Source of the DNA: Gracilinanus agilis
Lineage: Eukaryota
Reading direction: 5' to 3'
Assembly: GCF_016433145.1 (NCBI RefSeq)
Contig: NC_058133.1
Span: 333,419,959-333,483,958, forward strand
Length of the DNA stretch: 64,000 nt
A program made the position numbers and the translations under genes. The notes beneath the pieces are model-generated. The model saw only the letters and a list, made by a program, of their open reading frames with translations. It did not search any database and had not been told where the DNA came from. How positions within the stretch are numbered: the stretch's first letter is position 1; the number at the start of each line of letters is the position of its first letter. Positions 6,458 to 63,709 of this stretch are shown in pieces.

Positions 6458-7000
6458 TTTTTTCTTCTTTTAATTTAAATTTTGAGTATTTTCCCCATAG
6501 TTACATTTCATGTTCTTTCCCTCTCCCCCAAACCTACCCCACACCCTCACCCCCCATAGCCAACGCATAATTCCACTGGGTTTTACATGTATCATTGATT
6601 AAGACCTAATTCCATATTATTGATAGTTGGACTAGAGTTATTGTTTAGTGTCTACATCCCCAATAATACTCCCATCTGCCCATGTGATCAAGCAGTTGCT
6701 TTTCTTCTGTGTTTCTACTCCCACAGTTCTTCCTCTGAATGTGGCTAGTTTTCTTTTTCATAAGTCCCTCAGCCTTGCTCTGAATTCTTGCATTGCTGCT
6801 AGTAGAGAAGTCTGTTATGTTCGATTGTACCACAGTGTATCAGTCTCTGTATACAGTGTTCTCCTGGATCTGCTCCTTTCACTCTGTATCAGTTTCTGGA
6901 GGTCATTCCAGTTCACATGGAATTCCTCCATTTCATTATTCCTTTGAGCACAATAGTATTCCATCAGCAGCAGATATCACAATTTGTTCAGCCATTCCCC
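6458..7000 (-). mobile_element. 5'-truncated opossum-type L1 3' end with TSD
   Basis: antisense L1 3'UTR; 16-bp TSD AAAGCTTTCTTATTTA at 6442-6457 and 7001-7016. Confidence 0.9.
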
Positions 7001-7214
7001 AAAGCTTTCTTATTTAAATTAAAAACAAAACAAAAAACTTTTTTGATGGAAATCTAATGTGATGGTGACTAGCATGTACACAGAGCATCTTGCATATTGT
7101 CCTCCCACATGGAGGAACCTAGAGAGCCTGTTTCTAGAAAAGCAGTAATAATGTATAATGGGAGTGCCTTGCAGAAATCTTGGAGAATCAACAAATCCAT
7201 TCTGTGACAGTGTC

Positions 7215-15570: not shown

Positions 15571-15764
15571 CAGTGGTTCCCAAATTTTTTTTGGCCTACC
15601 ACCCCCTTTCCAGAAAAAATATTACTTAGTGCCCCCTGGAAATTATGAAACTATTTATTTAACTCAGAATAGAATGTAATACAAAAAAAGTGTGGCCATT
15701 ACCGCTCTCCTGGATCGCTGTAGCACCCATCAGGGGGAGGTAGCGCCCACTTTTGGAATCACTG
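15571..15764. mobile_element. hAT/Charlie MITE copy 1
   Basis: TIRs CAGTGGTTCCCAAA / TTTTGGAATCACTG; 8-bp TSD ATATAAAG/ATATGAAG. Confidence 0.9.
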
Positions 15765-16539
15765 ATATGAAGGATATCATCCTGGAGGAATGTGGCCAGG
15801 AAAAGAGGTGAGGCTGGATGTGTAATGAGAATGAGATAGAACTGATGGGCAGGTACCTATGGATTTTTTTTGGTGGGGATTTAGGCAAGTTATTTATTTC
15901 CACAAAAGAAAGCAATAGTAAGCAGAAGAGAATTGCAACATGTGTTAACAGAACAAATGAAATAGCACTAAGTTATCTTACTACTAGTACAACTAGCTGG
16001 AAGGCTAATGTTAAATCCTCCTTGGGATATAAAATAGTTTTTGCTGTGTTGCATTTCACTACTGTTGGCATTGTCGGATCATATCTTAGAAGCTGATTTT
16101 TTCTAGTGATCTCTCTTCACTTGATGCCAGCCCACTCCTGTCACTATTTAGGCACTCTTTCTCCTAAATTGCTCAGGTGTCAGGGAAGGGGAAATCAAAT
16201 GCTGCCACCTTGCAGAGTTTTTGATGCTTACATAGTTAATTCTAATGAAAGGAAATATAACAAAAAAGACAGAGGCAACCAAGGGACCTTAGTATAAGCC
16301 CACCTAGTTGAATATATAATCCACATAAGGGAGTGGTAGCGTGTGCTCCATTTTGTCTGGCATATAGAAGGGTTGTCTTTCTCTGCCTCTCATTGAAATT
16401 ATATCTTGTCACTTGGTGGACTGCATACATTGAATGTTAAAGATCTGAAGAAAGACTTTCAACATGTTGGCTAGTCTTTTAGAGATGACTTATCTGAAGG
16501 TATGAATGAAAATTTAACAGGTTAAGAAGGTGTAGGAGA

Positions 16540-20550: not shown

Positions 20551-21119
20551 TAATAGGGGAAAAGACTTATACAAAAATATTTATAGCCATGCTCTTTAGG
20601 GTGGCAAAAAATTGGAAAATGAGGGGATACCCTTTGATTGGGGAATGGTTGACCAAATTGTGGTATTTGTTGGTGATGGAATACTGTTGTACTGAAAGGA
20701 ATAATGAACTGGAGGAATTCTATGTGAACTGGAATAACCTCCAGGAATTGATGCAGAGTGAAAGGAGCAGAACCAGGAGAACCCTATACACCGAGATGGA
20801 TACCCTGTGGCACAATCGAATGTAATGGATTTCTCCACTAGCAGCAATGCAATGATCCAGGACAATTCTGAAGAATTTATGAGAAAGAATGGTATTCACA
20901 CCCAGAGAAAGAATTGTGGAAGTAGAAACACAGAAGAAAAATAATTGCTTGATCACATGGGTTGACGGGCATATGATTGGGGATGTAGACTGTAAGCGAT
21001 CACCCTAATGCAAATATTAATAATATGGAAATAGGTCTTGATCAATGACACATGTAAAACCCAGTGGTATTGCATGTTGGCTATGGGAAGGGGATGGGAG
21101 GAAGGGAAGAAAAGAACAC
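20551..21119 (+). mobile_element. L1 3' fragment lacking terminal ~40 nt and poly(A)
   Basis: opossum-type L1 3'UTR; 18-bp TSD GAAT(G/A)CCCTCATTTTAGA at 20533-20550 and 21120-21137. Confidence 0.85.
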
Positions 21120-21910: not shown

Positions 21911-22499
21911 AAAGGATGGGAATAAAAAACAGCGATAGCTAACATTTACATAACACTTTAAAGTTTACAAACCATTTTACATACTTTATCTCATATGATC
22001 CTCACAACAGTCCTCTAAGACAGGTACTCGGGGTCAGTCTTCACAGTATTTTTTGCAAATAGTTTGGACTCTAAATCCATATAGCCCTTGATTGCCATAT
22101 TTCACTCTGGTGAGAAGGGGTTTCTGGATTCCTTTCCATTTCTCTTTTGTGGTGAATGTTTTATGTTGGTTAAATTTATTTTAAAATGGTGCTAGATTCA
22201 CTGTTTTTTATTTTGTTCATTTTCTCAGTGTTCAAGGTCAGCAGCTTTGGAAGAAAAAAAGAGAAAGGTTAGGTCAGAGTAGCTATAATTAAATGCATTG
22301 TCATTGTGGATAAAATTTGTGTACTCTAATTGTGAGGGATACATCTTCTTTCCCAAAAGAAAAAGAACTTTTTTTTTCAAAGAAACAGAGCTATGGGATT
22401 ATGTAAATAGAGATAGCCTCAGTTTGTATTTTATTCAACGACAGGTTGATCCCTGATGATTTTATCTTGAAGAGGGTTTCCAATACATTTATTTATTTA

Positions 22500-23110
22500 T
22501 TAGAATTTATTTTTATTTTATTGATTAATTATGGAAAATTTTCCATGGTTCCATGATTCCTATTCTTTCCCTCCCCTCTGGGTTTTACATGTGTCATTGA
22601 TCAAGCCCCAGTGCAAACACTAGGGTGATCGTTTAGAGCAGTGGTTCCCAAATTTTTTTGGCCTACTGCCCCCTTTTCCAGAAAAAAATATTACTTAGTG
22701 CCCCTGGAAATTAATTTTTAAAAAATTTTAATAGCAATTAATAGGAAAGATAAATGCACCTGTGGCCATCACCGCTTTCCTGGATCGCTGCAGCACCCAC
22801 GAGGGGGCAGTGGTGCTCACTTTGGGAATCACTGGTTTAGAGTCTGCATCCCCAATCATATCCCCATTGACCTATGTGGCCAAGCAATTGCTTTTCTTCT
22901 GCATTTCTGTTCCCACAGTTCTTTTTCTGGATGTGAATAGCATTCTTTCTCATAAGTCCCTCAGAATTGTCCTGGATCATGCATTGTTGCTAGTACAAAA
23001 AGTCCATTACATTCTATTTTACCACAATGTATTGGTCTCTGTGTACAGTGTTCTCCTGGTTCTGCTCCTTTTGCTCTGCATCAAGTCCTGGAGGTTGTTC
23101 CAGTTCACAG
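22500..23110 (-). mobile_element. L1 3' fragment interrupted by a MITE
   Basis: antisense L1 3'UTR on both sides of 22639-22834. Confidence 0.85.
22639..22834. mobile_element. hAT/Charlie MITE copy 2
   Basis: TIRs CAGTGGTTCCCAAA / TTTGGGAATCACTG; perfect 8-bp TSD GTTTAGAG. Confidence 0.92.
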
Positions 23111-28790: not shown

Positions 28791-30034
28791 TTTAGTGGCT
28801 GATGAAGAAGGAAAAGAGGAAATGACAAAATGAGANAATTAAAAAAAAATTTCTGGAAACTTATATTGGAATATGAATGAAAGAGTCTACTAATTAAAAA
28901 ACTATGGTTATAAGGTTTACAGAAGCAGGCTAAATCTTCTCCAAGAATTGTTTCCTAGAAGGGTGATGATTAGGGATACTAGGCTAGAAGCATTGTTATT
29001 CCCAAGACTCTTGAGTTCAGAGTATTGAACTATGTCTAAGAGAAAGGGAGGGAGACACAGGAAATGGGTATAGAAATTAATAGAAGATGCAGCAAAAATA
29101 ATTTAAAGGGTTCAGAGTTTCACATGCTTAATAACTAAATCATTCATTAGCACTTTTTGTATTCTATCTCCTTTTCATCTGTCATCTAAAGAGAACATAA
29201 ACTCTTAGAGTCAGAACTTACTTTAGTTTTCTATATGTATCCTCTGCCCCTCTTATAGATTTTTGGAAATAGTAGATATTTAATAAATGATTCATCAATG
29301 ATGAATTTGTTCAACACATTTATTGTACCTGTTTTGGTGGCCTGTTTCTATTGGAGCTTGACACCACTGCCCTAGAATTGGGGAAATCCAGGAAAGATAT
29401 CCTGCAAAATATCCTGTAGTGTTTCAACTGAATCTTGAAGGAAGCCAGAGAAACTTAAAAGGCTTCAAAAGTGAGGGTGGAATATGGGGAAACACTGCAG
29501 ACATTGGAGAAAGCTAGTGAAAAGGTACAGCATCTAGAGACAAGAACTGGAGGGTTATCTGAAAGTAACAACAAGTAAGCCAGCATTGCCAGAACATAGA
29601 GTAGTATGTGGAGAGAAGTAAGGGTGGAAAACCTGGAAAGGTAGAAAGGGACAGGCCAGAAGAATTTATATTTGATCTGGCCCAAGGATTAGAACTAGTT
29701 AATATCTTATTTTTATTCAAATTAAAATTTAAAAAGCCATTGGAGTTTACTGAGTAGGGGAGGTAACATGGTCATTCCTACTCTTTTGGAAAAAATCACT
29801 TTGGCACCTAAGCAGAAGAAGGATAAGAGTAAGGAGAAATTTGGGGCAAGAAACCAATTAAAAGTCTATGGCTGCAGGCCTAGAGACGGGAGGTCCTAGG
29901 TTCAAATCTGGCCTCAGACACTTCCCAGCTGTGTGACCCTGGGCAAGTCACTTGACCCCCATTGCCTACCCTTACCACTCTTCCAGCTATAAGTCAATAC
30001 ACAGAAGTTAAGGGTTTAAAATTTAAAAAAAAAA

Positions 30035-40117: not shown

Positions 40118-40737
40118 TTTCAAAATTAAGTTCATTTAATTAATTAATTAATTAATTAAGGCTATTTTTCCACGGTAACATGATTCATGTTCTTTCCTCC
40201 CCTCCTCCCACCCCACTCCTGTAGCCAATGAGCAGTTCCACTGGGTTTTACATGTGTCATTGATCAAGACCTATTTCCATATTATTAATATTTGTACTAA
40301 GGTGATTGTTTAGAGTCTATATCCCCAATCATATTACCATTGAACCATGTAATCAAGCAGTTGTTTTTCTTCTGTGTTTCTACTCCCACAGTTCTTTCTC
40401 TGTATGTGGACAGCATTCTTTCTCGTAAGTCCCTCAATATTGTCCTGGATCATTGCATTGCTGCTAGTACAGGAGAACATTATGTTTGATTGTGCCATAA
40501 TGTATCCATCTTTGTGTACAATGTTCTTCTGGCCCTGTTCCTTTCACTCTGCATCAATTCCTGGAGGTCTTTCTAGTTCACATGGAATTCCTCCAGTTCA
40601 TCATTCCTTTCAGCACAACAGCATTACATCACCAAAAGTTACCACAATTTGTTCAGCCATTCCTCAATTGAATCCCTTCATTTTCCAATTTTTTGCTACC
40701 ACAAAGAGCTCGGCTATGAATGTTTTTGTACAAGTCT
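40118..40737 (-). mobile_element. opossum-type L1 3' end with TSD
   Basis: 17-bp TSD TGGAAA(T/C)TAGCATTATT at 40101-40117 and 40738-40754. Confidence 0.9.
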
Positions 40738-48096: not shown

Positions 48097-48316
48097 CAGT
48101 GGTTCCCAAACTTTTTTGGCCTCCCGCCCCCTTTCCAGAAAAAATATTACTTAGCCCCCTGGAAATTAATTTTTTTATTTTAATAGCAATTAATAGGAAA
48201 GATAATTATAATTAAAGCAATTAATAGGAAAGATAAATGCACTGTGGCCATCACCGCTTTCCTGGATTGCTGCAGCACCCACCAGGGGGCGGTGGCACCA
48301 ACTTTGGGAATCACTG
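48097..48316. mobile_element. hAT/Charlie MITE copy 3 with internal tandem duplication
   Basis: same TIRs as copies 1 and 2; TSD CTCTAGGT/CTCTAGAT; AGCAATTAATAGGAAAGATAA present twice. Confidence 0.92.
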
Positions 48317-49754
48317 CTCTAGATGGAATACTGGAATCTTATCGGTGAATAGAGCTACTGCATCCAATTCTAGTCTTAAACACTGGCTAGCTGTGTAACC
48401 TGGAATGAATTCTTTAACTTCTGCCTCAATTTCCTCAGCTGTAGAATGGGGATAATAATAGTACTTTCTTCACAAGGCTATTGTGAGAATCAAATAAGAA
48501 TATTTGTGCAGTGCTCAGCACAGTATTTGACACTTAGTAGACACCTAATAAACACTTATTTCCTTACTTCTTCTTTCCTTATCATTTTTATTGTTTTAAA
48601 TATTTGGTCTTACCTTCATACCCTAACCGAAGCTCAGAAATATGCTTATGAACTTATTTTCATGAACGAGGTTTTCCCCATTTTCATTGTTTTGTCTTTA
48701 GGATCACATGCTTATTTCAAAACAAAATGAAAAACTTTAAGGATTTTTTTCCCAGCAGAAATTCCTTTCTCTCATAGTCTATGTAACTTGAACCCTAAAC
48801 CACTAAGGCTCTGGTCCACATTTGCATCGTAAAGAGAAATCCCTTCTTTGCCAATGGAGCTTTGGACAGGTCAGTATCTTTCTTTGAGTTTCTTAAGCTT
48901 ACTTAAACATTCTTTAGAAATAAATCCCTTTGAAGTATTCCATAGAATTCCGAGCCAAAACTTTGCCTGCCTGTTGGCCTATGGAAACCTCTAATTCCCT
49001 GTCACTAATCCTGAAGCATCTCTTTGGAGGAACAAATAAAAGCAGAACACCTGTAGTGGATTGTATCCCCTATTAAAAGTACTTATTTCTGGATCTTTTC
49101 TTAATCAGAAACTATTTAAGAGACATTCATTTCAGGAGACTTAGTGGCCAATTACTGATTAGCTCCATTTTTTAAAGAATCAAAACCATTGTCAAAAATA
49201 GTTTTCTTATATTACATTCCAGAAGAAATATAGTCATAAAAAACATCCAAAACCCCACACTGAAATGGATACCCAGGCATTAAACAGAAGTTTTTCAAGA
49301 GAGATAGATTCCTTAATGGTGTCCTTACTAGTTCTAGCTCTAATTTTAAATATTTTTAAAAGCATTAATATGGGTAAATTTAACACTTTCATTCATTCAT
49401 CAAACATTTATTTTAAGCACCTGCATGTACCAGGAAGACACAGAATAAAAAAGAAATAGTCTCTGCCCTGCAATGCAGTGTGGAATAGATACTTGTAATT
49501 CCAAGGTATTTACCTGGATCTCTAATTTTATAAGTATAGAAAACTCCTTGATAATGAAAATCCATCTATTAATGCAAATTGGCATGTTCTATGCAATTTT
49601 TAGTAATAGTTGCCTAGAGTACAAAGAAGTTAAGTGACTCACCCAGGATTATACAGCTAATATGTGTTGGAGATGAGACTTCTCTATCTCTATGCCATGT
49701 CATGCTGCCTGCCTAGAAATATTAATTGATCCCATGGTGTCTGATGAAGTCACC

Positions 49755-50010: not shown

Positions 50011-51019
50011 AAGAGAAAGATTACAGAGAAAGGAAAGAATATCCAGGACAGGACCTTGGAGGACTTTTGAGATAAGAATTGTGGTGGATAGATAGGAAGG
50101 AGAATCTAGAGAGAAATGGTGACATGAAAATCCAGAGAGGAGAGAATATCCATGATGAAAGGGTGATGCTATAAAGAGATTAAGAAGAATGTGGACTGAA
50201 AAGAAGTATTTTAATTGGTTTGGCAATTAAGAGATAACCTTGTAGTTTTTGTAACACAATGCAATTACCCATGTGCACATAAAGTCACGTGGGCCATCTG
50301 TATCAAATAGTATATCTAATAGAATAGTCTTTTCCAAATTTTCATGTAGAAATAAAAGTTCATATCTAGTCATAGAATTGAATGGAACATTAGAGGTCAT
50401 CTTGTCCAACCTTTATCTAAAGCATGAATCTCCTCTTCTGCATTCTGGACCAGTGATCATTTGACTTCTATTTGAAGAAAAAATCAGTACACTGTACTGG
50501 GCAAAGATGAAGGAATAGCTCTTCTCTGAGAATCAGTGATTTCCCTGGTGTTAGTACTTTTCCCTAGATATATTTCAATCTACTTACACAATTGATCTCT
50601 GACCCTAAGTCCATTGTCTCTCTCTTTTCCACCCCTTGAAAGAAGGAAGTTGGACTAATGATATTGCAGATTCCTCCCAGCATGGATTCTGTGGTCTTGG
50701 TTTTGCCCTTTGAAGCTACATTGAATAAGTCTCATTCTGGAGCTGATTCTCCCAAGAGGCAGTATGGTATGGTGGAAATAGAACTGGACTGGGAGTCAGG
50801 AAAACAGAGTTCTGGTTCCAACTTTGCCAGTAACTAAATTGTGTGTTGAAAACCCACAGTTTTCTCTTCCATAAAAAAAAAAATTAGAGGTCATTCTAGA
50901 TTATCTGTTAGGTCTCTCTTCCATCTCTTAACATTTTAGTTTCTAATGGAAAATTCTGGTTAGTAGCCCTATTTATTATTGCTATAGCTTTTTAAAAAAT
51001 TTTAAGACTACACTTCCCT

Positions 51020-51300
51020 ACTTCACCTATGCCAAAAATTTAGCCACCACTCATAGGCTCAACCTTACTGCTGATCAGCATGAAAATTTTAACCAGTTCT
51101 GTTTCTGACCTGCACTGGTTTACCCCTCATTATGCAACCTGATGGTTCCCTGTTTCCAGGGGCATCTAATTGATACCAGACCCACTATGGACACCTATTC
51201 AGCTTTAGCCTACTGTAGCTCAGAATTCCTGAACCCAAATGATTCATCAAACCTAGCCTGTCCAGTAACAGAGAATTACAGGTGTGTTACCACACAGGCT
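51020..51300 (-). pseudogene. near full-length 7SL-derived retrocopy
   Basis: antisense CTGCTGATCAGCA..GTTTCTGACCTG..GCAACCTGATGGTTCCC..GAATTACAGGTGTG. Confidence 0.8.
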
Positions 51301-51729: not shown

Positions 51730-52668
51730 TGTTATGGTCCCAAAACTCTATTCTTAATATAAATAGCCTCTGATTTATTGTGGCGTCCATGTTTCTGAGA
51801 AGGGTTCAAGCTGCATCACAGAATTCCATAGTGCCCCCCAGAACTCTAAGAGAGGGGACAGTTAAGGGCAGTTGGAGTCCTGGTAAAAAAAAGCCAGGTC
51901 ACCCCTCTTGCAAGGGGTCCTGACTCTTGGCTCTTAGCTCAGGGCAGAGATACTCTGTGTAGCTCCTAGGGCTGGGACAGTCTCTGACAGCCAGGGTTGC
52001 TTATTTGATAGCAACCTCAAAGATAGACCTTCAAGCAAGATAACAATCTACCTTTAGTTTAGCTATTTAGGTTTTAGAAGGAAGATTATTTAAGGGCTTA
52101 GATAGGAGTTCAGCCATTCAAGATACATTTCCCCCTTGCTGGGGAAGTGCTGCTCATTTTAACATAGCTGATTTTAGATAGCTTCCCCTAACCTCTCATT
52201 CCTAAATAATTTCCCTTCTTCCTGTTCCCAGAAACCATTAAACCCTTACCATTTAGAAGCTGTGCCTGGATACAAATAATTTGGGGAGATACTCACATCC
52301 TCCATAAGCCAAGTTCCTCTTTCTAGTGACTCTGAAGTTGATCCTAGCTTCAGAGCCAGTGGGCTGCTCCTTAGACAACAAGCCTCATATATTTCTATCC
52401 TGTGGGGGAGTAATTTAGACAAAGAAAGTTATTATCACAAGGGTTTAGTCTCTATCCACTTAACATCTTGAATAACCTCCATAACCAGCTCTGAAAGTAT
52501 TCTGTTAACTGATTTCCAACTGCTTACAGGGTGGAGGGAGGTGAAGGAGTACTCCACGGGCTCTTGCCCCTCCCATCCAGTCAAGTTTACCTGCTTCTCC
52601 TCTAATCTGGGACAGGGGAGTATCCATTGCCATCTGACCCCTAATTTACAATTTACCCTAATCCTACA
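51730..52668 (+). mobile_element. 5' LTR of an ERV-like element (~940 bp)
   Basis: TGTTAT..CCTACA termini, ATTAAA at 52237-52242, immediately followed by a PBS and gag. Confidence 0.8.
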
Positions 52669-52671
52669 GTT

Positions 52672-52689
52672 TGGCCAGCCAGCCTAGGA
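52672..52689 (+). other. primer-binding site, tRNA-Arg-like
   Basis: TGGCCAGCCAGCCTAGGA, 3 nt after the LTR end, vs recalled complement of tRNA-Arg(ACG) 3' end TGGCGAGCCAGCCAGGAG (1 mismatch, 1 insertion). Confidence 0.7.
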
Positions 52690-52719
52690 TTTTTTGAACC
52701 TGAGGGTGAAAGTTTCATC

Positions 52720-55186
52720 ATGGCTAACCCTCTTAACAGAATGCTTGTCATGCTAGGGTGCACTTCAGTGCTGCTTTACAGTCTTTGGAGAGCATGTTCA
52801 ACTCTCTGGCTTGTTATAATCCCTCAGTTTTTCATAGAAGTTTTTAGGGTATATGACTCATGCAATAGCTGACCATACCCCTGAGAGAAGCTCTGGCCTA
52901 CGTACCATCAGGGATGGCCATGAAAGAATCATTCTATGGGGCTTTTATGCTATTGGGGAAGTTTTTAAGCTTTACTTTGGGGAAGGCAGAAGTCACTAAC
53001 CTGGCTATGGAAATTGTAATAGACAAATGAAGGTGTTAATAGAAATAAACAAGCAGATAAGGGAAGGCAAGGAGCTAGATGCACAGACCATCATGCAGCT
53101 AGAAGTAATTGTGGGAACAGTTTTAACAAATAATAAAAAAAGCAAAAAAAAAAAAAAAAAAAGGCCAATGAGACAACCAACACTGAACAACAAGTTATAG
53201 GGGCTGAAGTAGCTCTTGACACCATTTTACCCATTGCAGATAGTACTATAATTCAGCCAGATTCGGGGATTGTGCATGTGAAGGGCTATAAACCATTCTC
53301 TGGGGGTGATATAGAAATTTTGAAGAGGAGGTTTCCCCAGTTCTACATAAATCTACATAAGTGGATCAAAGAATACAAAAGGACTGTCTGTTTGTATAAT
53401 CCCCACCTTTGAAGATGTGGAGTTGCTTTTGTCAGAACTGTACACCCCTAGTGAGAAAAAGTTTATAGCTGAGACTAGGAGCAATCCCAACCTAGCCTCT
53501 TGGCCAGAACAACATCAAGACTTGGAGTTATTGTCCCATGCCAACATGGCATATCTGAAACATTGTAGGGAAGATTTGGCAGAAGCGATGTGTCTGCATG
53601 CACGTCACTCCAATGCACGGGGATCCTTTGAAAAGCTTAGGCAAGGGGAAGAAGAGCACACAAGCCTTCATTTAGATAGGCTCTTGGAAGCTGGAGAGAC
53701 AATTTTAGGCTTTAGGGACATGACAACTGAGGATAACATTCAATACTTTAGGCATCAGTTTGTAAAAGGTAGTGCAATTCCCATTCAATCATACTTTAAG
53801 TTGCATTGCCCAAATTGGGAGACCATGCCCATTGAAGAACTTAGGAAGACAGCAGCCTATGTTCATGAATCAAGGGAAACTGAGCCTAAACAGTCTAAGG
53901 CCTCAGAAAAAGACAATGAGATAGCCCACTTGAAAAGACAACTGAAAGAGGCACAAAAGGCAAAATAAATTGAGGAGATAAAGAACATAGCTCTAATGTC
54001 ACATAATCAGAGGAGCCAGAGTAGGCCAAGACAATCCTTCAATAATAATAATAACAACAACTCTGTGAAAAGATGTTTCCTGTGCCAAAAATTGGGCCAT
54101 ATTGTCAGGGACTGTAGATTCAAGTCACAAATAAATTTTAACAAGAATAATTACAACAGCAGCAATAGAAGAAATACCTATTATAATTCTAGATATAATA
54201 ACAACAACAACAAAGACAGTAACACAAAATATAATGACAGAGTAAAACCAAGATGTTGTGATCATACCTGTTCTAGCTTTAATAATTCCCCTAGTTTGTC
54301 CAAGATGGAAGGATATGTGTCCCAAGGAGTGAGACCACGTACTAATTTATGAATTGAGGAAGCAGCATTAGTTGTTGCAGTAACAGACAAGGGCAATGGC
54401 AATGATGAGATAGAGAAGAATGAGAAAGAGAAACTAGGAGAAGTCATAAATTATGGGCTGGTGGATGTAACACAAAGTTACAAGGGAAGGACTGAAGAAG
54501 AGTTGCAGATGGAGTATGATATATTAGAAATAAAAGAGAGGATTTATGGGAAGAAAAACAGTAATTTGGGGAGTAATGAAAGAAAAGCATTTACATCTAC
54601 ACAAAATCTTGATTCAAGCTTGAAGGAAGTAGCATTCATTAATTCTATCTGTACTAGAGAAGAAACATCATTATGTAGTAAGGCCTTCGATCATTTTAAT
54701 CAATCAGTAGTACAGCAAGGCAAAACAACAAGGGCAATGATTTTAGACAGGTCTTCTGATGGGGATCTTATAAAGACAGACATTGTCAACAAGGGAGATA
54801 GGCTCCCTCAGACCATTGAGAAGGAAAGTGCAAAATTCTCAGACACAGGCACAATCTCTTCTCCATCACCAGCTAGAGAAGCTAAAAGGGTAAGTGAAAA
54901 GTCTAGTTGCTACAATGACAAAGAGACTTTATAGTTGGATCCCAATGCTAAGGAATTCTTACCAAGCTTAGCTCAGGGACATTTGCATCAAGATGTAGCA
55001 TACTTTCAAGCCTGCGAAACTCCAAAAAGAGCTGCCTTTGGAGTAAATTCTGAGTCAATGCATTTAAAGGAATTTCAATTCAAAAAATGTCAGGTATGTA
55101 GTGCAGGCATTCCTGTCTTTACTTTACAAATAGGGAAACAGACTCAGTTTCCCTTGACTCATGAACATAGACCGCTGTCTTCCTAA
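52720..55186 (+). pseudogene. gag: disrupted class I ERV-like gag with long C-terminal extension; no pro/pol/env
   Basis: p30-like CA (YKPFSGGDIEILK..YNPTFEDVELLLSELYTPSEK), MHR (LRQGEEEHTSLHLDRLLEAG), CCHC knuckle CFLCQKLGHIVRDC; ORFs 53417, 53996, 54461 and 54935 share one frame separated by single stops; frameshifts near 52840, in the 53144-53162 A-run and at the 53401-53404 C-run. Confidence 0.9.
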
Positions 55187-55248
55187 GTACTTCAATGGGC
55201 ATTGTCTCCCACTGTGGGCAATGCAACTTAAAGTAATGACATTAAGAC

Positions 55249-55290
55249 TGTTAATGTCTTATCTTAATACAGATAGCCTCTGATTTTTGT
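55249..55290 (+). mobile_element. start of putative 3' LTR; only ~40 bp match the 5' LTR
   Basis: TGTTAATGTC..TCTTAATACAGATAGCCTCTGATTTTTGT vs TGTTATGGTC..TCTTAATATAAATAGCCTCTGATTTATTGT at 51730; no PPT seen. Confidence 0.5.
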
Positions 55291-57659
55291 ATTTCCTTTT
55301 AGTAAAGGGACAGCCGAGAGGCTGTAGGAACGGTTCTTGGGAGTTCCTCCCATATTATATAGACCCCACCACCAGACCCATCCAAGGTAGTATCTGTTAG
55401 AAGGAGAGGAAATAGATGAAAAGACTAAAAACCATGAAGGTCTCTAAGATATGACCTATTATTTGGGGTCCCAGATTGGGGTCCCCCCATTTTTTAATCC
55501 TATTTCCTCACTTACAAAGCCACTTTACCATTTGTTTCATAGGATAACTCTCCTTTTTCATACTTCCTTGTTGCCCACTCTAGTAGGTACATCCAAGTTC
55601 AGGTCTAGCACATCCAGGTTGAAGTACTTCCCTTCATTACAGACAATGACAAAGGCATTTAAAGATGGATTATGGTCCTTCTTTAGTTGAATTGTTGATA
55701 AAGTACCAACTAGATATTCAGGAGAGATACATAATTGTCTAGTTGTGTAGATTCTTGTCCTGAAGGCGTGTAATCTATATGGAAAGATAATTCTTTTAAC
55801 ATTGGTAAAACAACATGGGGCTTTACCCAATCATGAGGCAGCAGAACTGGCAACAGAACCCAAGACTTATGGCTCTAAACAGAATGGAATGCTTCACACC
55901 CTTTTATTTAACTGAAAAATTAAATCACTGTGAAACCACAGCCTGGAAATGCTCAGTCAAACCACACATGCACATAATCAAAACAAAGCAAACAACCTGG
56001 CTTCTTTTCATTTCCTCATCAGTAGGAGGCAACATTCTACAATGGAGAATGGAGCAATAAATTGGGAGTCCTAGGACTGGATCCACATCCTACTCTGTCC
56101 CTTCCATGTGTGTTCTTGAGCAAGTCACACATTCTTTCCAGACTTCAGTTTTCTCATCTGTAAAAGGAGGGGATTGAACAAAGTGATCTCCAAGGATGCT
56201 TTCAACTCAAAAGCTATTATTCTCTGATCCTGTGATCTTTTCTCATCCTGATCACCTATGAAGTATAGCTATTAAGGCATTTTAGATGAGACTGATTTCC
56301 ATGATCTTCCTCCCTGCCTCCTAAACAAATCTTATTGCTTTGTGGTCTCAGAATGTCCCTTTAGTTCACTGAGTTTTTCTCAGTGCCTTGCACCATGGTA
56401 GGTGCTTAATAAATGCTAAATTGAATTTATTTCAATTCAATTCAATTGAATTTCCTCTAGGGAAGCAGGGTAGAAAGAGCGCTCAACTGGGAGCTTAGAA
56501 TCTCTCGATTTCAGTCTTGGCTGTGCCACTTAGGAGCAGCCTTGGAAGACTGGGTCAATCTTTTAACCTCTCTGAATCTCTGTTTCCCTATTTGTAAAGT
56601 GAAGACAGGAATGCCTGCACTACATACCTCACAGGTTGCTATGAAGAAAGTGCTTTGTGAACTGTAAAGGGCCATATAAATGGGAGCTGTTCTGTCTTTC
56701 TCTCTTGGTTTCTTTCATTTGTTAAAACACTAAGCTGAATCCTATCTAAGTTTGACCTCTGCAGCCTATCGATCTGTCTGTCTCTCTCTACCTGCCTTGG
56801 ATGTCATCCATTTGTAGAGTGACAGGCAATAGTATAGGCACAATTTCATTGTGATTGTACACTTATCCCCTGAATGTAGTTATGGATTGAATTGTTAGAA
56901 AAGGAAATATAGGATATGGACAGTTGTCTTTGCACCTTCCTGTACTGTCAGAAGACATAATTTTCTTGTTGCTCTTCTGTGTTTTCTCCCTTGGGATCCT
57001 CTTCTCCAAAATATATCTGTATTGGCAGGTGGCAGACATGCTGACATTTGTGGTACAAACAAGATTTAGAGATGAAACACCAAAATGGACTGTCAACATT
57101 TTCCAACCTTATCTTCTGTAAAATACAGTACAATTTTTAAAATGCTCTTTTTATCATCGATTACATTCTGACATTTGTCCCTCATATCTTTGTAAAACAA
57201 CCATGGTCAAAATCACTGAAAGGCAAAGCTCGGTTAATTTCTATCTGAAAATATAATGAATCCACATTTCTGTTTATCACACAAAAAAGTTTTATGGTTC
57301 ATTTCCTGACATAAAAATAATTCTTAGCTATAGTACCCATCATAAAATGAATGATTATAACTTAATATGAAGTTATTCCAACAGATGGCTTTCATTATGA
57401 AAATATATGATAGGAGTAGCTTTTTATATGAAGGTAAGAACCAACACTAGTGGATAGGCAAAGAAGGCAGCTGCTAAGGGCATACATAGTATGTCAGAGA
57501 ACTCAAAAAGGAACAATTCTTAATATTTTTTTAAAAAGTAAAATTTTAAGGAAATATCTTTTGCTTTTATATCACCTAAATCTCCTTTTATCCATTCCTT
57601 TTCTTCCCTCCCAGAGAATCATCCCACATAGCAATGAATATTTTCTTAATATTTCTTTT

Positions 57660-59694: not shown

Positions 59695-60240
59695 GCTGCT
59701 TATTTGTTGTCCTTCACACTTGAAGAGGACCAAAATGACATCACCAAAATGACAAAGGGTGATGTCTTTTGGCTTAGGCATAAATTGAGTTTAAGTGAGG
59801 CAGAGTTGCTCAATGTCATCAGCTTCACTCTCTCTTCCAGAGTCATTGAAGTCCAGAGGCAAGACTGAAGTCAAGATGATGGGTGATGGTTTGTAAAGCA
59901 GTGGATGACCTTGGGTTCTTCAAAGTCTAATCAAACTTTAAGTTACTCCACAGTGCCTGCTTCTGTTGCCTTCATGGCCATTAGAATAAATGGTTCTCAT
60001 CTACCCCTTCTTCTGGGCAAAGTCTTCACATGCTTATGGCATGTGATGGGTCTGAGGCCTGTTGGTTACCCTCAGTCTGGTTTAGTGTACCTGCAGAGAC
60101 AGTTGACCAAGGTATGGCTGCTGTGCATGCTATAACTTGGAGCCATAGGTGAGAGTTGAATGAAAGGTGGACACCAAAGGTGAATGAACAGCCCCCAAAA
60201 GGGTTTAGTTGCTAGGCAGTAAGAACTATGATATTTCAGA
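59695..60240 (+). mobile_element. MAR2 / RTE-related marsupial element
   Basis: GTCCTTCACACTTGAAGAGGACCAAAATGACATC..AAGTGAGGCAGAG..CTCTCTTCCAGAGTCAT. Confidence 0.7.
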
Positions 60241-60900
60241 GGGGAGATATTACTGTGGTACTTGATTACAAAGGTTATCCCCAAAAATCTGAGCCCTAAA
60301 GCTGAGTCTTTTTTGGATGAATTGGACATGGAAAGATGGAGAAGGAGAGGAGGCATTTCAAGGAAGAAAATGATCTGAGTAAAAATGGCAGAGAAGGCAT
60401 TGTATATTTAGAGGATATTGAGAGGACAGGTTCCCCTAAAGCAGTGGATGATGTAACTTCATTAAAACTGCAAGCATAGCAACTAAAAAATTTTTTCTAT
60501 AAGGATTAAAGGAATACCTACAAGAATTAAAGCAAAACATTTTTAAATGAAATAGAAAATCTAGAGGATAATTTTAGGAGAATAAGTAGCTTGGAATAGA
60601 AAGCAGTACATTTACCAAGAAGTGGAATCCCTAAAAAGTAGACAAGACTTAAATCACTGACTTCATGAAACAGCAACAAAAATTAGAACAAAATCAAAAA
60701 GACTGAAAAACAGTATAATATGTAAGATGTCAAATATCAAAAACAACTGACCCTGGAAATCAAATCAAGGAGAGATACTTTATCATTGGGAAACTTTTGA
60801 CCAAACAACCATAAACCTACTTTAACAAAACCCTGAAGCTTATATCAGTCTGAACAATGATCAAGAAATTCAATGAGAAATTATTAAAGTGACATTTTCC

Positions 60901-61092
60901 GGGGGCAGCTGGGTAGCTCAGTGGATTGAGAGCCAGGCCCGGAGACGGGAGGTCCTAGGTTCAAATCCGGCCTCAGACACTTCCCAACTGTGTGACCCTG
61001 GGCAAGTCACTTGACCCCCATTGCCCACCCTTACCACTCTTCCACCTATAAGTCAATATACAGAAGTTAAGGGTTTAAAAATAAAAAATAAA
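60901..61092 (+). mobile_element. full-length young SINE1_Mdo-type SINE
   Basis: A-box TAGCTCAGTGG (60914-60924), B-box GGTTCAAATCC (60958-60968), retained CpGs, perfect 15-bp TSD AAAGTGACATTTTCC (60886-60900, 61093-61107). Confidence 0.95.
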
Positions 61093-61599
61093 AAAGTGAC
61101 ATTTTCCACCCTAGAACTGTAGCAAAAATGAGCCAGAAGCTCAAGAGCAAGAGGTAAGATCCCTGCTTCCTTCAGTAAAGGTAGTGCTAGCATCTCCCAG
61201 TGAAACCAGAAGTAGGAAAATGAAGAACCTGCAAGGCTTTTCCTCTAGAGAAAAAAAGAGTAGAGGACTTGTCTGAATAAGTATAGACAGATAAGTCCAA
61301 GGGAAGGCAGAAAGCACTGAGGTAGGGATAGCAGGAAGCAAAGATCATGGTGCCATAGTGCTAAGACCAGAAAACCCAGCCTATGTACTCTGAGGTTCCT
61401 GTCAGTCTGTCCCAAGATGCCAGGCTATGAAGATCTAGTGTACTTTTACCTTCAAAGATATAGGGGCGTCTAACTCTCCTGGAGGTGTAGAGGTCAGCAA
61501 AAGAATTCACAGAGCCAGAACAGTACCACAAATTGACTATCATACCACAAAATGGCTCAGAGGTCAGAGTTTGATCCTATCACAAAACCTCAATTCAGG

Positions 61600-62640
61600 A
61601 ATTAAAACTAGAAAAATGAGCAAATTTTTAGGAATACCACCAGGTCTAAAAAATATATTGCAAATATAATTTCCATAATAATTGCAAAAAGGAACTTTTA
61701 AAGAAAAAAGTAGATTTTCTCCCAGGATTACATGAATACTTAGAAAAAATGAAGCAAGAACTAATAAGTGAAATAATTTCCCCTGAGGAAAAATTAGAAT
61801 GAGAACATTAGTAGCTTAGAAAAAAAATGGTGGACTTTACCCAATAAATGAACAGTCTGGAAACTAGAATGTAACAAACAGAAATCGATTACTCAATGAG
61901 ATAGCAAGAAATATTAGAATAAATCAAAAGCCTGAAAAATAGGAGAAATAAAAGATATTTGATAATAACAAAAAAAATTGACCTGGAAAATGGGTCAGAG
62001 ATGGATCACTTAAGAATTATTAGACTCCCTAAAAACCATGATTTTTTTAAAGCTTTTACATTATATTTCAGGAAATTATAAATGAAAACTGCTCAGATTT
62101 ATTAGAACCAGCAGCAAAATATAGATGAAAGGAATTCCCCAAAGGAAAAGTCATAGCCAAAATCCAGACCTTCCAATACTATGAGTATCCACAAAGGAGT
62201 TCAGGTGCCAAGAAATAACAGATCACACATGACCTTCTATTATAAATGAGAAATGATATTGGAATATAATATTTTAAAAGACAAAAGTTACAGGCCAGTA
62301 ATCAAGAATAAATTTCCCTGTAAAGCAAAGAGTAATCCTATAGGAGGGGATAGATATTTAATGGAATAGAGGACTTTAAAGCATTTCTGATGGAAAGACA
62401 AGACTAGAGCTGAGAAGGACTTTGAAATACAAACTCAAGAGGCTTGAGAAATCTAGAAAGGTAAATTTATTTGACCAATTAAAGAGGACTTTATAATATA
62501 GTACTAATCCTCTAATAGGACTGATTCAGAATGGAATGAGAATTAGGAGAACCATTCATATAAGAAGAGTAACATTGTAAGAAAAGCAGCTTTGAAGGAT
62601 TGAAGAACTCTGATCAATGCAAAAACCAATGTATCTACTG
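61600..62640 (+). mobile_element. degraded L1/HAL1-like ORF1 region joined to 3'UTR-like sequence
   Basis: coiled-coil-type A-rich body, AAAGTCATAGCCAAAATCCAG (KVIAKIQ) ORF1 CTD-like motif; no ORF2 seen. Confidence 0.6.
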
Positions 62641-63709
62641 TGATGAATAATATTCACCTACCTCCTGAAGGAAAAAAAAAAGGACTTTAAAAAAGGAAGT
62701 TTTTTCTTTCCTGTCCTGGAGAAGAAAAGTTTATAACCTCTCCAGCCCTTTCCTCCATGAGTCAGCTGAAAGTACAGGTCAGCTTTGTCCAGTTTGCAAT
62801 CTTGTTGCCAACCAATTGCAGACCATTCTCCCAATTCATTAATTATACCATGAGCAATAAAGTGCATTGGATGATTTTTTTTTCAGTTTCTGAGATGTGC
62901 CTAATATTTTAAAAAGGTTTTTATGCACATTAACAAATTAAGAAATCGGCTGCTTAAAGAAAAGCCCTTCCAAATAGTGGGAAATTTATTCATTTTAGCT
63001 GCATTATTTTCTTGGATGCATGGATGATATGCAGCTTCTTTGTTCTGATGTTGTAGTCACCAGTATTCCACTTGGGATAAGTTTTAAGGATTCAGCTAAG
63101 GGAAAGTTTAAAGAAACAACTTAGAATCTCATGGGGGAAGGTATACAGCTATGAATACATAGGCAGAAAGGCATTTTTAGAAATATGCTGAGGGGGAAAA
63201 AGCCCTTCAGCAATACACACTGAATTTTCTGAAAATCCAAGCAAAATGCAAACACTTGGAGAGAGTACAGGCTTCAGAAAGATTGTGGGTGGGTTTCAGT
63301 TTCCATTTATTTTTTCTCAATCTCTTCTTCTAAGAGTACTGGGGAAGAAATTGTGCTCTAACTCTGGAAAATCCATTCCTACTTTATGATTCAGCACTGA
63401 TTTTGTAGGCTATAATAAGACACTTGGTCTAGTGGGGAGAACTAAAGAACTAGACGTCATAATTAAATTCTTTCTAGATTTGTCTCAGTTTTGTGACATC
63501 ATCTTGTGACAATTCATTGAATTACTCTCTACCTGCATTACTTGTTTCCTCTAAAAGGAGAATTGGCTTTAGCAACAGCAAAGACCAGCTTCTACTTTAT
63601 AATCTACTAGGTCCTGGTCCTGATGATGATGATGATAACTAGCATTATATTGTACTTTATGGTTTGCAAAGTGCCTAATAATTATCTCATTTTATCCTCA
63701 CAACAATCC

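What the first reader, a model, noticed from the sequence alone, without database searches (positions are those of the whole stretch)
51730..55290. Gag-only ERV-like element: LTR-PBS-one long gag-LTR start, with no pro/pol/env
Seen: a 939-bp LTR, a PBS, and an ORF that reconstructs to ~820 codons (52720-55186). LTR-like sequence resumes only 62 nt after its final stop. No aspartic protease (DTG/DSG), RT or env motif is visible. Established: the CA and MHR resemble gammaretroviral/class I p30, and MaLRs are a known gag-only non-autonomous design in a different ERV class. Inference: this may be a class I-derived, MaLR-like gag-only family that replaced pro-pol with a novel ~400-residue tail rather than a randomly deleted provirus.
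Basis: partly seen in the sequence, partly recalled or inferred. Interest (0 to 1): 0.8.

Follow-up and report, generated by a model that had tools for sequence, protein, structure and literature searches.

The report
Broken retrovirus relic with repair scar
This is the front half of an old retrovirus fossil whose back end was scrambled by a local DNA-repair accident, so it does not show a 'gag-only' design, although its capsid gene has an unusual water-repelling start and is followed by a real but unidentified protein-coding stretch.

Summary
The 5' half is real: a TG...CA block (51730-52668), an Arg-type PBS and a broken class I gag with an MLV-type capsid and one zinc knuckle.

The 3' end is not a gag-only junction. 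The last 32 codons of the 'ORF' lie in two inverted copies of nearby DNA: host flank 56579-56633 (96%) and gag 53792-53887 (92%). A hairpin follows, then only about 35 nt resembling the LTR start. No second LTR, PPT or TSD was found. This is a post-insertion template-switch scar, so the amount deleted is unknown.

The '820-codon gag' is more likely an ~540-codon Gag ending near TGA 54350, where the two closest full-length relatives (520, 533 aa) end, plus a 245-codon in-frame segment in the pro position. That segment is a genuine coding remnant (1 stop versus 16 expected), is not a protease, has no detectable homologue and carries a sub-threshold PAM2-like motif.

The full-length relatives in its clade start with a hydrophobic segment; no matrix domain was detected. 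Whether the family lacked pro-pol cannot be told from this copy.

The parts
51730..52668 (+). 5' LTR (inferred; single copy), inserted in the 3' part of a MIR-like repeat
   Evidence: TG...CA termini and adjacent PBS; ATTAAA at 52237; upstream flank matches other repeat copies at 69-78%; the name MIR is recalled
52672..52689 (+). Primer binding site, tRNA-Arg(ACG)-like
   Evidence: One mismatch in the first 13 nt plus a 1-nt insertion against the PBS typed R/ACG for HERV3 in Vargiu et al. Table S1 (compared by eye)
52720..54352 (+). Broken class I gag, about 544 codons, at least three frameshifts, stop at 53966, ending at TGA 54350
   Evidence: 42-46% identity to full-length Gag relatives P0001 (520 aa) and P0025 (533 aa) up to their C-terminal motif; span
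52720..52869 (+). Hydrophobic Gag N-terminus in place of a recognisable matrix start
   Evidence: Max 19-residue hydropathy 1.58; aligns to P0001 residues 1-40, z 4.1, but not significantly to P0025, P0002 or P0007
53230..53880 (+). Capsid (p30-type), major homology region at about 53642-53700
   Evidence: Atlas, profile vs PDB, model pLDDT 88.5, Foldseek top hits MLV capsid 6hww/6hwx
54074..54115 (+). Single CCHC zinc knuckle
   Evidence: Pfam zf-CCHC E 1.1e-4, above cut-off
54254..54271 (+). Extra Cys-Cys-x-His-x-Cys motif, shared with relatives
   Evidence: Aligned in P0001 and P0025; similar in P0012 by eye
54353..55087 (+). 245-codon in-frame tail in the pro position; charged, no homologue, cut by the rearrangement
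   Evidence: 1 stop vs 16.0+-3.7 expected; no hit; model pLDDT 35
54935..54964 (+). PAM2-like motif LDPNAKEFLP directly after the stop at 54932
   Evidence: Pfam PAM2 14.2 bits, E 0.036, cut-off 20; post hoc pattern found once in six frames of the window and in 0 of 20000 shuffled tails
55088..55142 (-). Inverted copy of host flank 56579-56633
   Evidence: 53 of 55 identical, E 1e-19; next-best match in the window 73% over 30 nt
55140..55235 (-). Inverted copy of gag 53792-53887, overlapping the first insert by 3 nt of microhomology
   Evidence: 88 of 96 identical, E 8e-34
55228..55268 (.). Fold-back hairpin across the 13-nt filler at the junction
   Evidence: z -3.2, 2 of 200 shuffles as stable; window chosen after seeing it
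55249..55290 (+). Short stretch resembling the LTR start: 3' LTR stub, third templated piece, or a related LTR
   Evidence: 30 of 35 nt; no purine tract before it
56579..56633 (+). Host-flank donor of the first insert

Best explanation
A class I (gamma/epsilon-like) endogenous retroviral element integrated here, with an Arg-type primer site, and then decayed. Later a DNA break in its 3' part was repaired by polymerase template switching. Reading along the plus strand, the join holds 55 nt of downstream host flank and 96 nt of its own gag, both inverted, then a fold-back filler and a short LTR-start-like stub. Whatever lay between 55087 and the 3' end was lost. SHOWN: the inverted copies, their donors, and the absence of a second LTR, PPT and TSD. 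INFERRED: the repair mechanism, and that a deletion occurred. Gag proper ended at or near TGA 54350. The 245-codon tail is an element-encoded in-frame segment in the pro position, most likely made as a Gag extension by stop read-through or loss of the stop, and probably disordered (inferred). The locus itself is dead and says nothing about how much pro-pol-env the family carried.
For: Inverted copies at 96% and 92% with E 1e-19 and 8e-34. The host donor is specific to this flank, so the junction postdates insertion. Together the copies differ from their donors at 10 of 151 nt, with compatible rates (Fisher p 0.33), so they are old and not an assembly duplication. There is 3-nt microhomology between the inserts and a hairpin at the filler, as described for templated insertions (PMC8421209, passages). 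The LTR match is no longer than 35 nt. P0001, P0025 and P0004 end 14, 11 and 21 residues after a motif that lies 3 residues before the TGA. The ATG-to-TGA span of 544 codons fits 520 and 533 aa. All 24 of 24 representative hits have their best stretch in query residues 14-331, none in the tail.
Against: The donors lie 1.25 and 1.44 kb away, whereas the tool in PMC8421209 looked only within 100 bp. The gag insert could come from another family copy: two of its differences match relatives. LTR-like sequence does resume just after the scar, which would fit a short original 3' end. The TGA is 8-18 codons earlier than the relatives' ends and could be a later nonsense change. No significant structure follows it (z -1.0). 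No DNA of another copy could be examined.
Confidence: 0.75

Rival explanations
1. One reading: the family is non-autonomous, built as LTR-gag-tail-LTR and mobilised in trans, and the scar removed only the end of the tail, the PPT and most of the 3' LTR. This is compatible with the scar; it concerns what was lost.
For: The tail sits directly behind Gag, where class I protease starts (frame 0 in 1128 of 1803 scored class I HERV chains; PMC4724089 Table 2), and it is not a protease. It is as open as CA-NC: 1 stop in 245 codons vs 1 in 333. An LTR-like start follows within 162 nt of the break. Gag-only ERV families exist (BHIKHARI; PMC12067270 section 5 and passages).
Against: No second copy, 3' LTR, PPT or TSD. 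No Gag-plus-tail protein was found or 53 (searches are weak evidence by the tool's own note). The sister clade includes an RT-bearing protein, P0005.
Confidence: 0.35
2. The family was autonomous, or nearly so, with an unusually long in-frame spacer or accessory region between Gag and protease; pro-pol(-env) was removed by the deletion at 55087.
For: The frame is still open at the break. The frame-0 position matches class I gag-pro read-through. The sister lineage has RT.
Against: I recall no class I virus with 245 non-protease codons before the protease (own knowledge). No pol fragment was found in the window (using P0005, P0008, P0019).
Confidence: 0.3
3. The tail is captured coding DNA (host mRNA or another element's ORF) fused in frame behind gag in one sublineage, as in ERV gene captures.
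For: PAM2-like motifs are typical of host RNA-binding proteins. ERV gene capture usually deletes viral domains (PMC4299795, passages). Relatives end without the tail.
Against: No host homologue among 1.84 billion representatives, in the Atlas or in Pfam. Purine and A content continue smoothly from gag into the tail.
Confidence: 0.12
4. The stretch from 55249 is a different, related LTR (candidate 55249-55862) rather than a stub of this element's 3' LTR.
For: It starts TGTTA and shares about 35 nt with the 5' LTR. The 4 nt before it recur after a CA at 55861-55862 (by eye).
Against: A 6-nt match within 1 kb is expected by chance roughly once in five tries (rough estimate). There is no other copy in the window.
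Confidence: 0.15
5. The junction is an assembly artefact.
For: Inverted local copies can arise from chimeric reads or mis-joins (general knowledge).
Against: The inserts differ from their donors at 10 of 151 positions; an artefact would be near-identical.
Confidence: 0.03

Closest known systems
Class I (ERV1, gamma/epsilon-like) endogenous retroviruses; MLV capsid as solved reference
   Same: p30-type capsid, one CCHC knuckle, Arg(ACG)-like PBS as in HERV3, downstream ORF in frame 0
   Different: No matrix domain or myristoylation start detected, PBS-to-ATG distance only 30 nt, extra Cys/His motif, non-protease sequence in the pro position, no pol to classify by
Unnamed Gag proteins P0001, P0025, P0002, P0003 (same clade, support 100/98)
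   Same: 35-53% capsid identity; hydrophobic start in the three long ones; same C-terminal motifs in P0001 and P0025
   Different: P0001 and P0025 end without the tail; their DNA context and species are unknown to me
MaLR (MST/MLT/THE)
   Same: Only gag-like coding is visible
   Different: MaLR is class III, where 193 of 196 scored chains have no zinc finger; this locus has a class I capsid with a knuckle and no paired LTRs
BHIKHARI (Bik-1/Bik-2), zebrafish gag-only ERVs
   Same: Single long gag ORF without pol or env
   Different: Lokiretrovirus-related, many copies with both LTRs, TSDs and intact ORFs; none of that is shown here
IAP/MusD intracellularised ERVs
   Same: An altered Gag N-terminus, which in those elements redirects particles to the ER membrane or cytoplasm (PMC2791754, passages)
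   Different: Those are class II (recalled); here only hydrophobicity is shown, not targeting. MLV-like P0024 also has a hydrophobic leader before a normal matrix, so a glyco-Gag-type origin (recalled term) is a rival
MMBIR / template-switch insertions
   Same: Inverted copies of nearby templates with 2-12 nt microhomology
   Different: Templates here are 1.2-1.4 kb away and the event is old

Membership tests
Class I ERV (ERV1) | p30-type capsid | tested here: met
   Profile of 20 sequences hits MLV capsid at E 9e-58 (the profile includes an MLV-like member); model's top two Foldseek hits are MLV capsid, E 7e-5 and 3e-4; 13 of 24 relatives match Gag_p30, 12 above cut-off. The window piece alone gives no Pfam capsid hit
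Class I ERV (ERV1) | Usually one zinc knuckle in NC | tested here: met
   One CCHC at 54074
Class I ERV (ERV1) | tRNA primer binding site after the 5' LTR | tested here: met
   Arg(ACG)-like, two differences
Class I ERV (ERV1) | Placement by RT/Pol phylogeny (the formal criterion) | not testable with these tools
   No pol found at the locus
Class I ERV (ERV1) | Protease in frame directly after the gag stop | tested here: not met
   245 codons with no protease match
Gammaretrovirus-type Gag | Myristoylated matrix domain at the N-terminus | tested here: not met
   No Gag_MA in the window frames, P0001 or P0002, or in P0025's precomputed domains; present in P0024
MaLR | Class III origin | tested here: not met
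   Class I capsid and a zinc knuckle
Gag-only non-autonomous ERV family (MaLR- or BHIKHARI-like design) | Two LTRs, PPT and TSD enclosing a single ORF | tested here: not met
   35-nt LTR match only, no PPT, no TSD near the junction
Gag-only non-autonomous ERV family (MaLR- or BHIKHARI-like design) | Many copies sharing the same internal structure | not testable with these tools
   No animal genome collection on hand; the bacterial/archaeal scan gave one chance hit
IAP-like intracellular ERV | Gag N-terminus targeting an internal membrane, env lost | tested here: inconclusive
   Hydropathy 1.58 (window), 1.87, 2.55, 2.25 (P0001, P0002, P0007) vs 0.04-0.63 in P0008, P0019, P0020; targeting and env status untested
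PAM2 motif proteins | Pfam PAM2 score above 20 bits and MLLE binding | tested here: inconclusive
   14.2 bits, profile positions 8-16 of 18; binding not testable here
Template-switch (MMBIR/TMEJ-type) scar | Inverted copies of nearby templates with microhomology | tested here: met
   microhomology could be read at one junction only

The most novel reading that the evidence does not exclude
A marsupial class I ERV lineage replaced matrix with a membrane-inserting N-terminus, converging on IAP-style intracellular assembly. One non-autonomous branch replaced pro-pol with an in-frame disordered tail bearing a PAM2 motif that recruits poly(A)-binding protein to its RNA or particles.
Probability: 0.15. 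Interest if true: 0.68.

Novelty: new variant of a known kind. Interest (0 to 1): 0.32.

Why it matters
As a locus it is an ordinary dead provirus, and a warning that 'gag followed by LTR' can be a repair scar. Two leftovers deserve a genome-wide look. (1) A well-supported Gag clade with hydrophobic starts and no detectable matrix would be a class I parallel to IAP intracellularisation, in a mammal group with high ERV content (about 10% in opossum). (2) An orphan coding segment in the pro position with a PAM2-like motif would, if conserved, be an unusual link between an ERV and poly(A)-binding protein. My searches for such reports (listings and abstract starts) showed none, but Repbase/Dfam and the opossum repeat paper (not held) could not be checked, so the family may already be catalogued.

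Tried and rejected
Searches without result. Longer-protein search with CA-NC: 0 of 2000 candidates. Longer-protein search with the tail: 0 of 2380. PDB sequence search: capsid piece gave only weak geminin coiled-coil matches; tail gave one beta-lactamase match at E 0.08; one minus and one plus frame downstream gave nothing usable. Atlas: no usable hit for the first 193 tail residues. The single-sequence tail model had pLDDT 35, so it was not fold-searched; low confidence does not by itself prove disorder. Pfam on six frames of 55240-56081: 0 of 6 with a family. Genome scan: L001, a bacterial 28% match, rejected as chance. Paper search for the PBS motif: 0 papers; resolved through a supplement.

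Ideas rejected. The in-frame DTG at 54842 as a protease site: wrong context, no family match. The CA plus 6-nt match at 56381 as a 3' LTR end with TSD: it sits in what I recall as an L2/MIR tail, and no LTR precedes it. The 33-nt match at 22399 as a second LTR copy: E 0.09 only. Continuation of the interrupted flank repeat downstream: 0 of 9 trial continuations beat shuffles. A read-through structure after the TGA: not significant. Tail against 25 stored proteins: two reached z 3.2-3.5, both capsid fragments, judged compositional.

Left open. Names, species and DNA context of the related proteins; any viral or metagenome contigs; a Pfam scan of the rest of the window.

Full report
1. Observation. 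The block 51730-52668 starts TG, ends CA and is followed after 3 nt by a TGG-starting 18-mer. That 18-mer differs by one mismatch and one inserted base from a PBS typed Arg(ACG) for HERV3 in the supplement of Vargiu et al. (PMC4724089; supplement rows seen). The block has no second copy in the 64-kb window, so it is an inferred LTR. The host is probably a marsupial, judged from SINE types that I recall; this was not tested.

The stretch from ATG 52720 to TAA 55186 spans 822.3 codons but is not one frame. It changes frame at least three times (near 52860, in the A-run 53135-53162, near 53403) and has in-frame stops at 53966, 54350 and 54932. Pfam finds only one zinc knuckle.

2. The gag is class I. 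An exhaustive search with residues from 53351-55087 gave 24 proteins; all 24 have their best stretch within query residues 14-331. Thirteen of the 24 match Gag_p30, 12 above cut-off. A profile of the window capsid plus 19 relatives hits MLV capsid at E 9e-58, with the caveat that the profile holds an MLV-like member. The capsid model (pLDDT 88.5) has MLV capsids as its top two Foldseek hits, and the Atlas lists retroviral capsid clusters.

A capsid tree of 17 rows (16 of the 25 stored proteins; knuckle-only and very short pieces left out; midpoint root) puts the window with P0001, P0025, P0002 and P0003 at 100/98 support. The sister group contains the RT-bearing P0005. The Gags with conventional starts lie on the other side.

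3. Gag ends where the tail begins. The two closest full-length relatives are 520 and 533 aa and align up to a C-terminal motif. P0001, P0025 and P0004 end 14, 11 and 21 residues after it; the window has TGA 3 residues after it. ATG to that TGA is 544 codons. The simplest reading is a normal-length Gag followed by an in-frame segment, which is where class I elements place protease (PMC4724089 section 9). One copy cannot show whether this TGA is the original stop.

4. The tail is real but unidentified. 54353-55087 has 1 stop in 245 codons against 16.0 +- 3.7 in dinucleotide shuffles (minimum 4 in 1000); the other plus frames have 19 and 25. It is rich in E, K and S and has no hydrophobic segment. 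It found no relative, and its single-sequence model is low-confidence. A DTG at 54842 lacks protease context. A PAM2-like motif at 54935 scores 14.2 bits against a cut-off of 20. A pattern written after seeing it occurs once in the six frames of the window and in 0 of 20000 shuffles; being post hoc, this is a lead only.

5. The 3' junction is a scar. Self-comparison shows 55088-55142 to be an inverted copy of host flank 56579-56633 (53 of 55) and 55140-55235 an inverted copy of gag 53792-53887 (88 of 96). The two share 3 nt at their join. The best other match of the flank piece in the window is 73% over 30 nt, so its donor is this flank and the junction must postdate insertion.

A hairpin spans the filler (z -3.2, window chosen post hoc). 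Only 30 of 35 nt then resemble the LTR start, the whole LTR aligns no better than shuffles, and there is no purine tract or nearby TSD. Ten differences in 151 nt argue for an old event and against mis-assembly. Inverted, microhomology-flanked copies of nearby DNA are the described signature of template switching (PMC8421209, passages), though that study examined templates within 100 bp.

6. How it most likely works. Shown: a decayed class I 5' half-provirus, a coding-type tail in gag frame, and a junction built from local templates. Inferred: integration, decay, then break repair that removed an unknown length; and expression of the tail as a Gag extension in the active ancestor. Confidence 0.75. 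What was lost is open: a gag-only family about 0.35, a long spacer before pro-pol about 0.3, captured coding DNA about 0.12.

7. An unasked feature. The window's gag starts 30 nt after the PBS with a hydrophobic segment that aligns to the start of P0001 (z 4.1; 1 of 24 comparisons, not significant against P0025, P0002 or P0007). P0001, P0002 and P0007 have hydrophobic starts (P0025 by eye) and no Gag_MA match. N-terminal Gag changes redirected IAP and MusD to intracellular assembly (PMC2791754, passages). Against a simple parallel, MLV-like P0024 also has a hydrophobic leader ahead of a normal matrix, and on the tree the label needs two changes and is not significantly clustered (47 of 500 shuffles as low).

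8. Comparison and novelty. It is not a MaLR, which is class III. The dasyurid survey lists eight beta- and gamma-like clades and describes none as gag-only in the part I read (PMC11334065 abstract and section 7). Other papers were seen as passages (PMC5753468, PMC4299795, PMC2717909, PMC13709493, PMC9315527, bioRxiv 10.1101/2025.10.09.680815) or as listings. Repbase, Dfam, animal genomes and bioRxiv supplements were not available, so prior cataloguing and copy structure stayed unchecked.

9. Verdict. Observation partly confirmed; interpretation partly supported; the key junction argument fails. Interest 0.32.

Noticed in passing
window 51003-51299 (-): Full-length match to metazoan SRP (7SL) RNA, 71.3 bits against a cut-off of 70; probably a retrocopy, 430 nt upstream of the LTR.
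   Followed up: no
window 55291-56050: Stretch with no match elsewhere in the window and no Pfam family in six frames. It may be a related LTR (the 4 nt before 55249 recur after a CA at 55861-55862) or unique host DNA.
   Followed up: partly
window 52720-52869 and P0001, P0002, P0007, P0025: Gag relatives begin with hydrophobic segments instead of a detectable matrix domain; possible internal-membrane targeting.
   Followed up: partly
window 54254-54271: A second Cys/His cluster after the zinc knuckle is shared with P0001, P0025 and, by eye, P0006, P0007 and P0012; perhaps a further metal site typical of this lineage.
   Followed up: partly
window 53135-53162: 28-nt A-rich run inside gag at one of the frame changes.
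   Followed up: no
window 29875-30034 and 60934-61093: Two SINE copies 94% identical, the youngest repeat pair seen; many older SINE/MIR-like copies are scattered through the window.
   Followed up: no
window 6553-7002, 20637-21112, 40193-40668, 22835-23109: Copies of a 450-480-nt repeat at 79-85% identity in both orientations; LINE 3' ends by recall.
   Followed up: no
window 15690-15771, 22760-22841, 48242-48323: Three copies of an 82-nt repeat (80-89%); the one at 22760 lies inside another repeat, possibly a small DNA-transposon derivative.
   Followed up: no
proteins P0012, P0005, P0008, P0019: Database proteins that join capsid pieces to a tyrosine phosphatase (P0012) or to RT-like pieces (P0005 and P0019 by Pfam; P0008 by eye); probably mis-predicted gene models or deleted proviruses.
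   Followed up: no
window about 59900-62900: A-rich stretch whose translation looked by eye like decayed LINE-1 coding sequence (recalled; composition).
   Followed up: no
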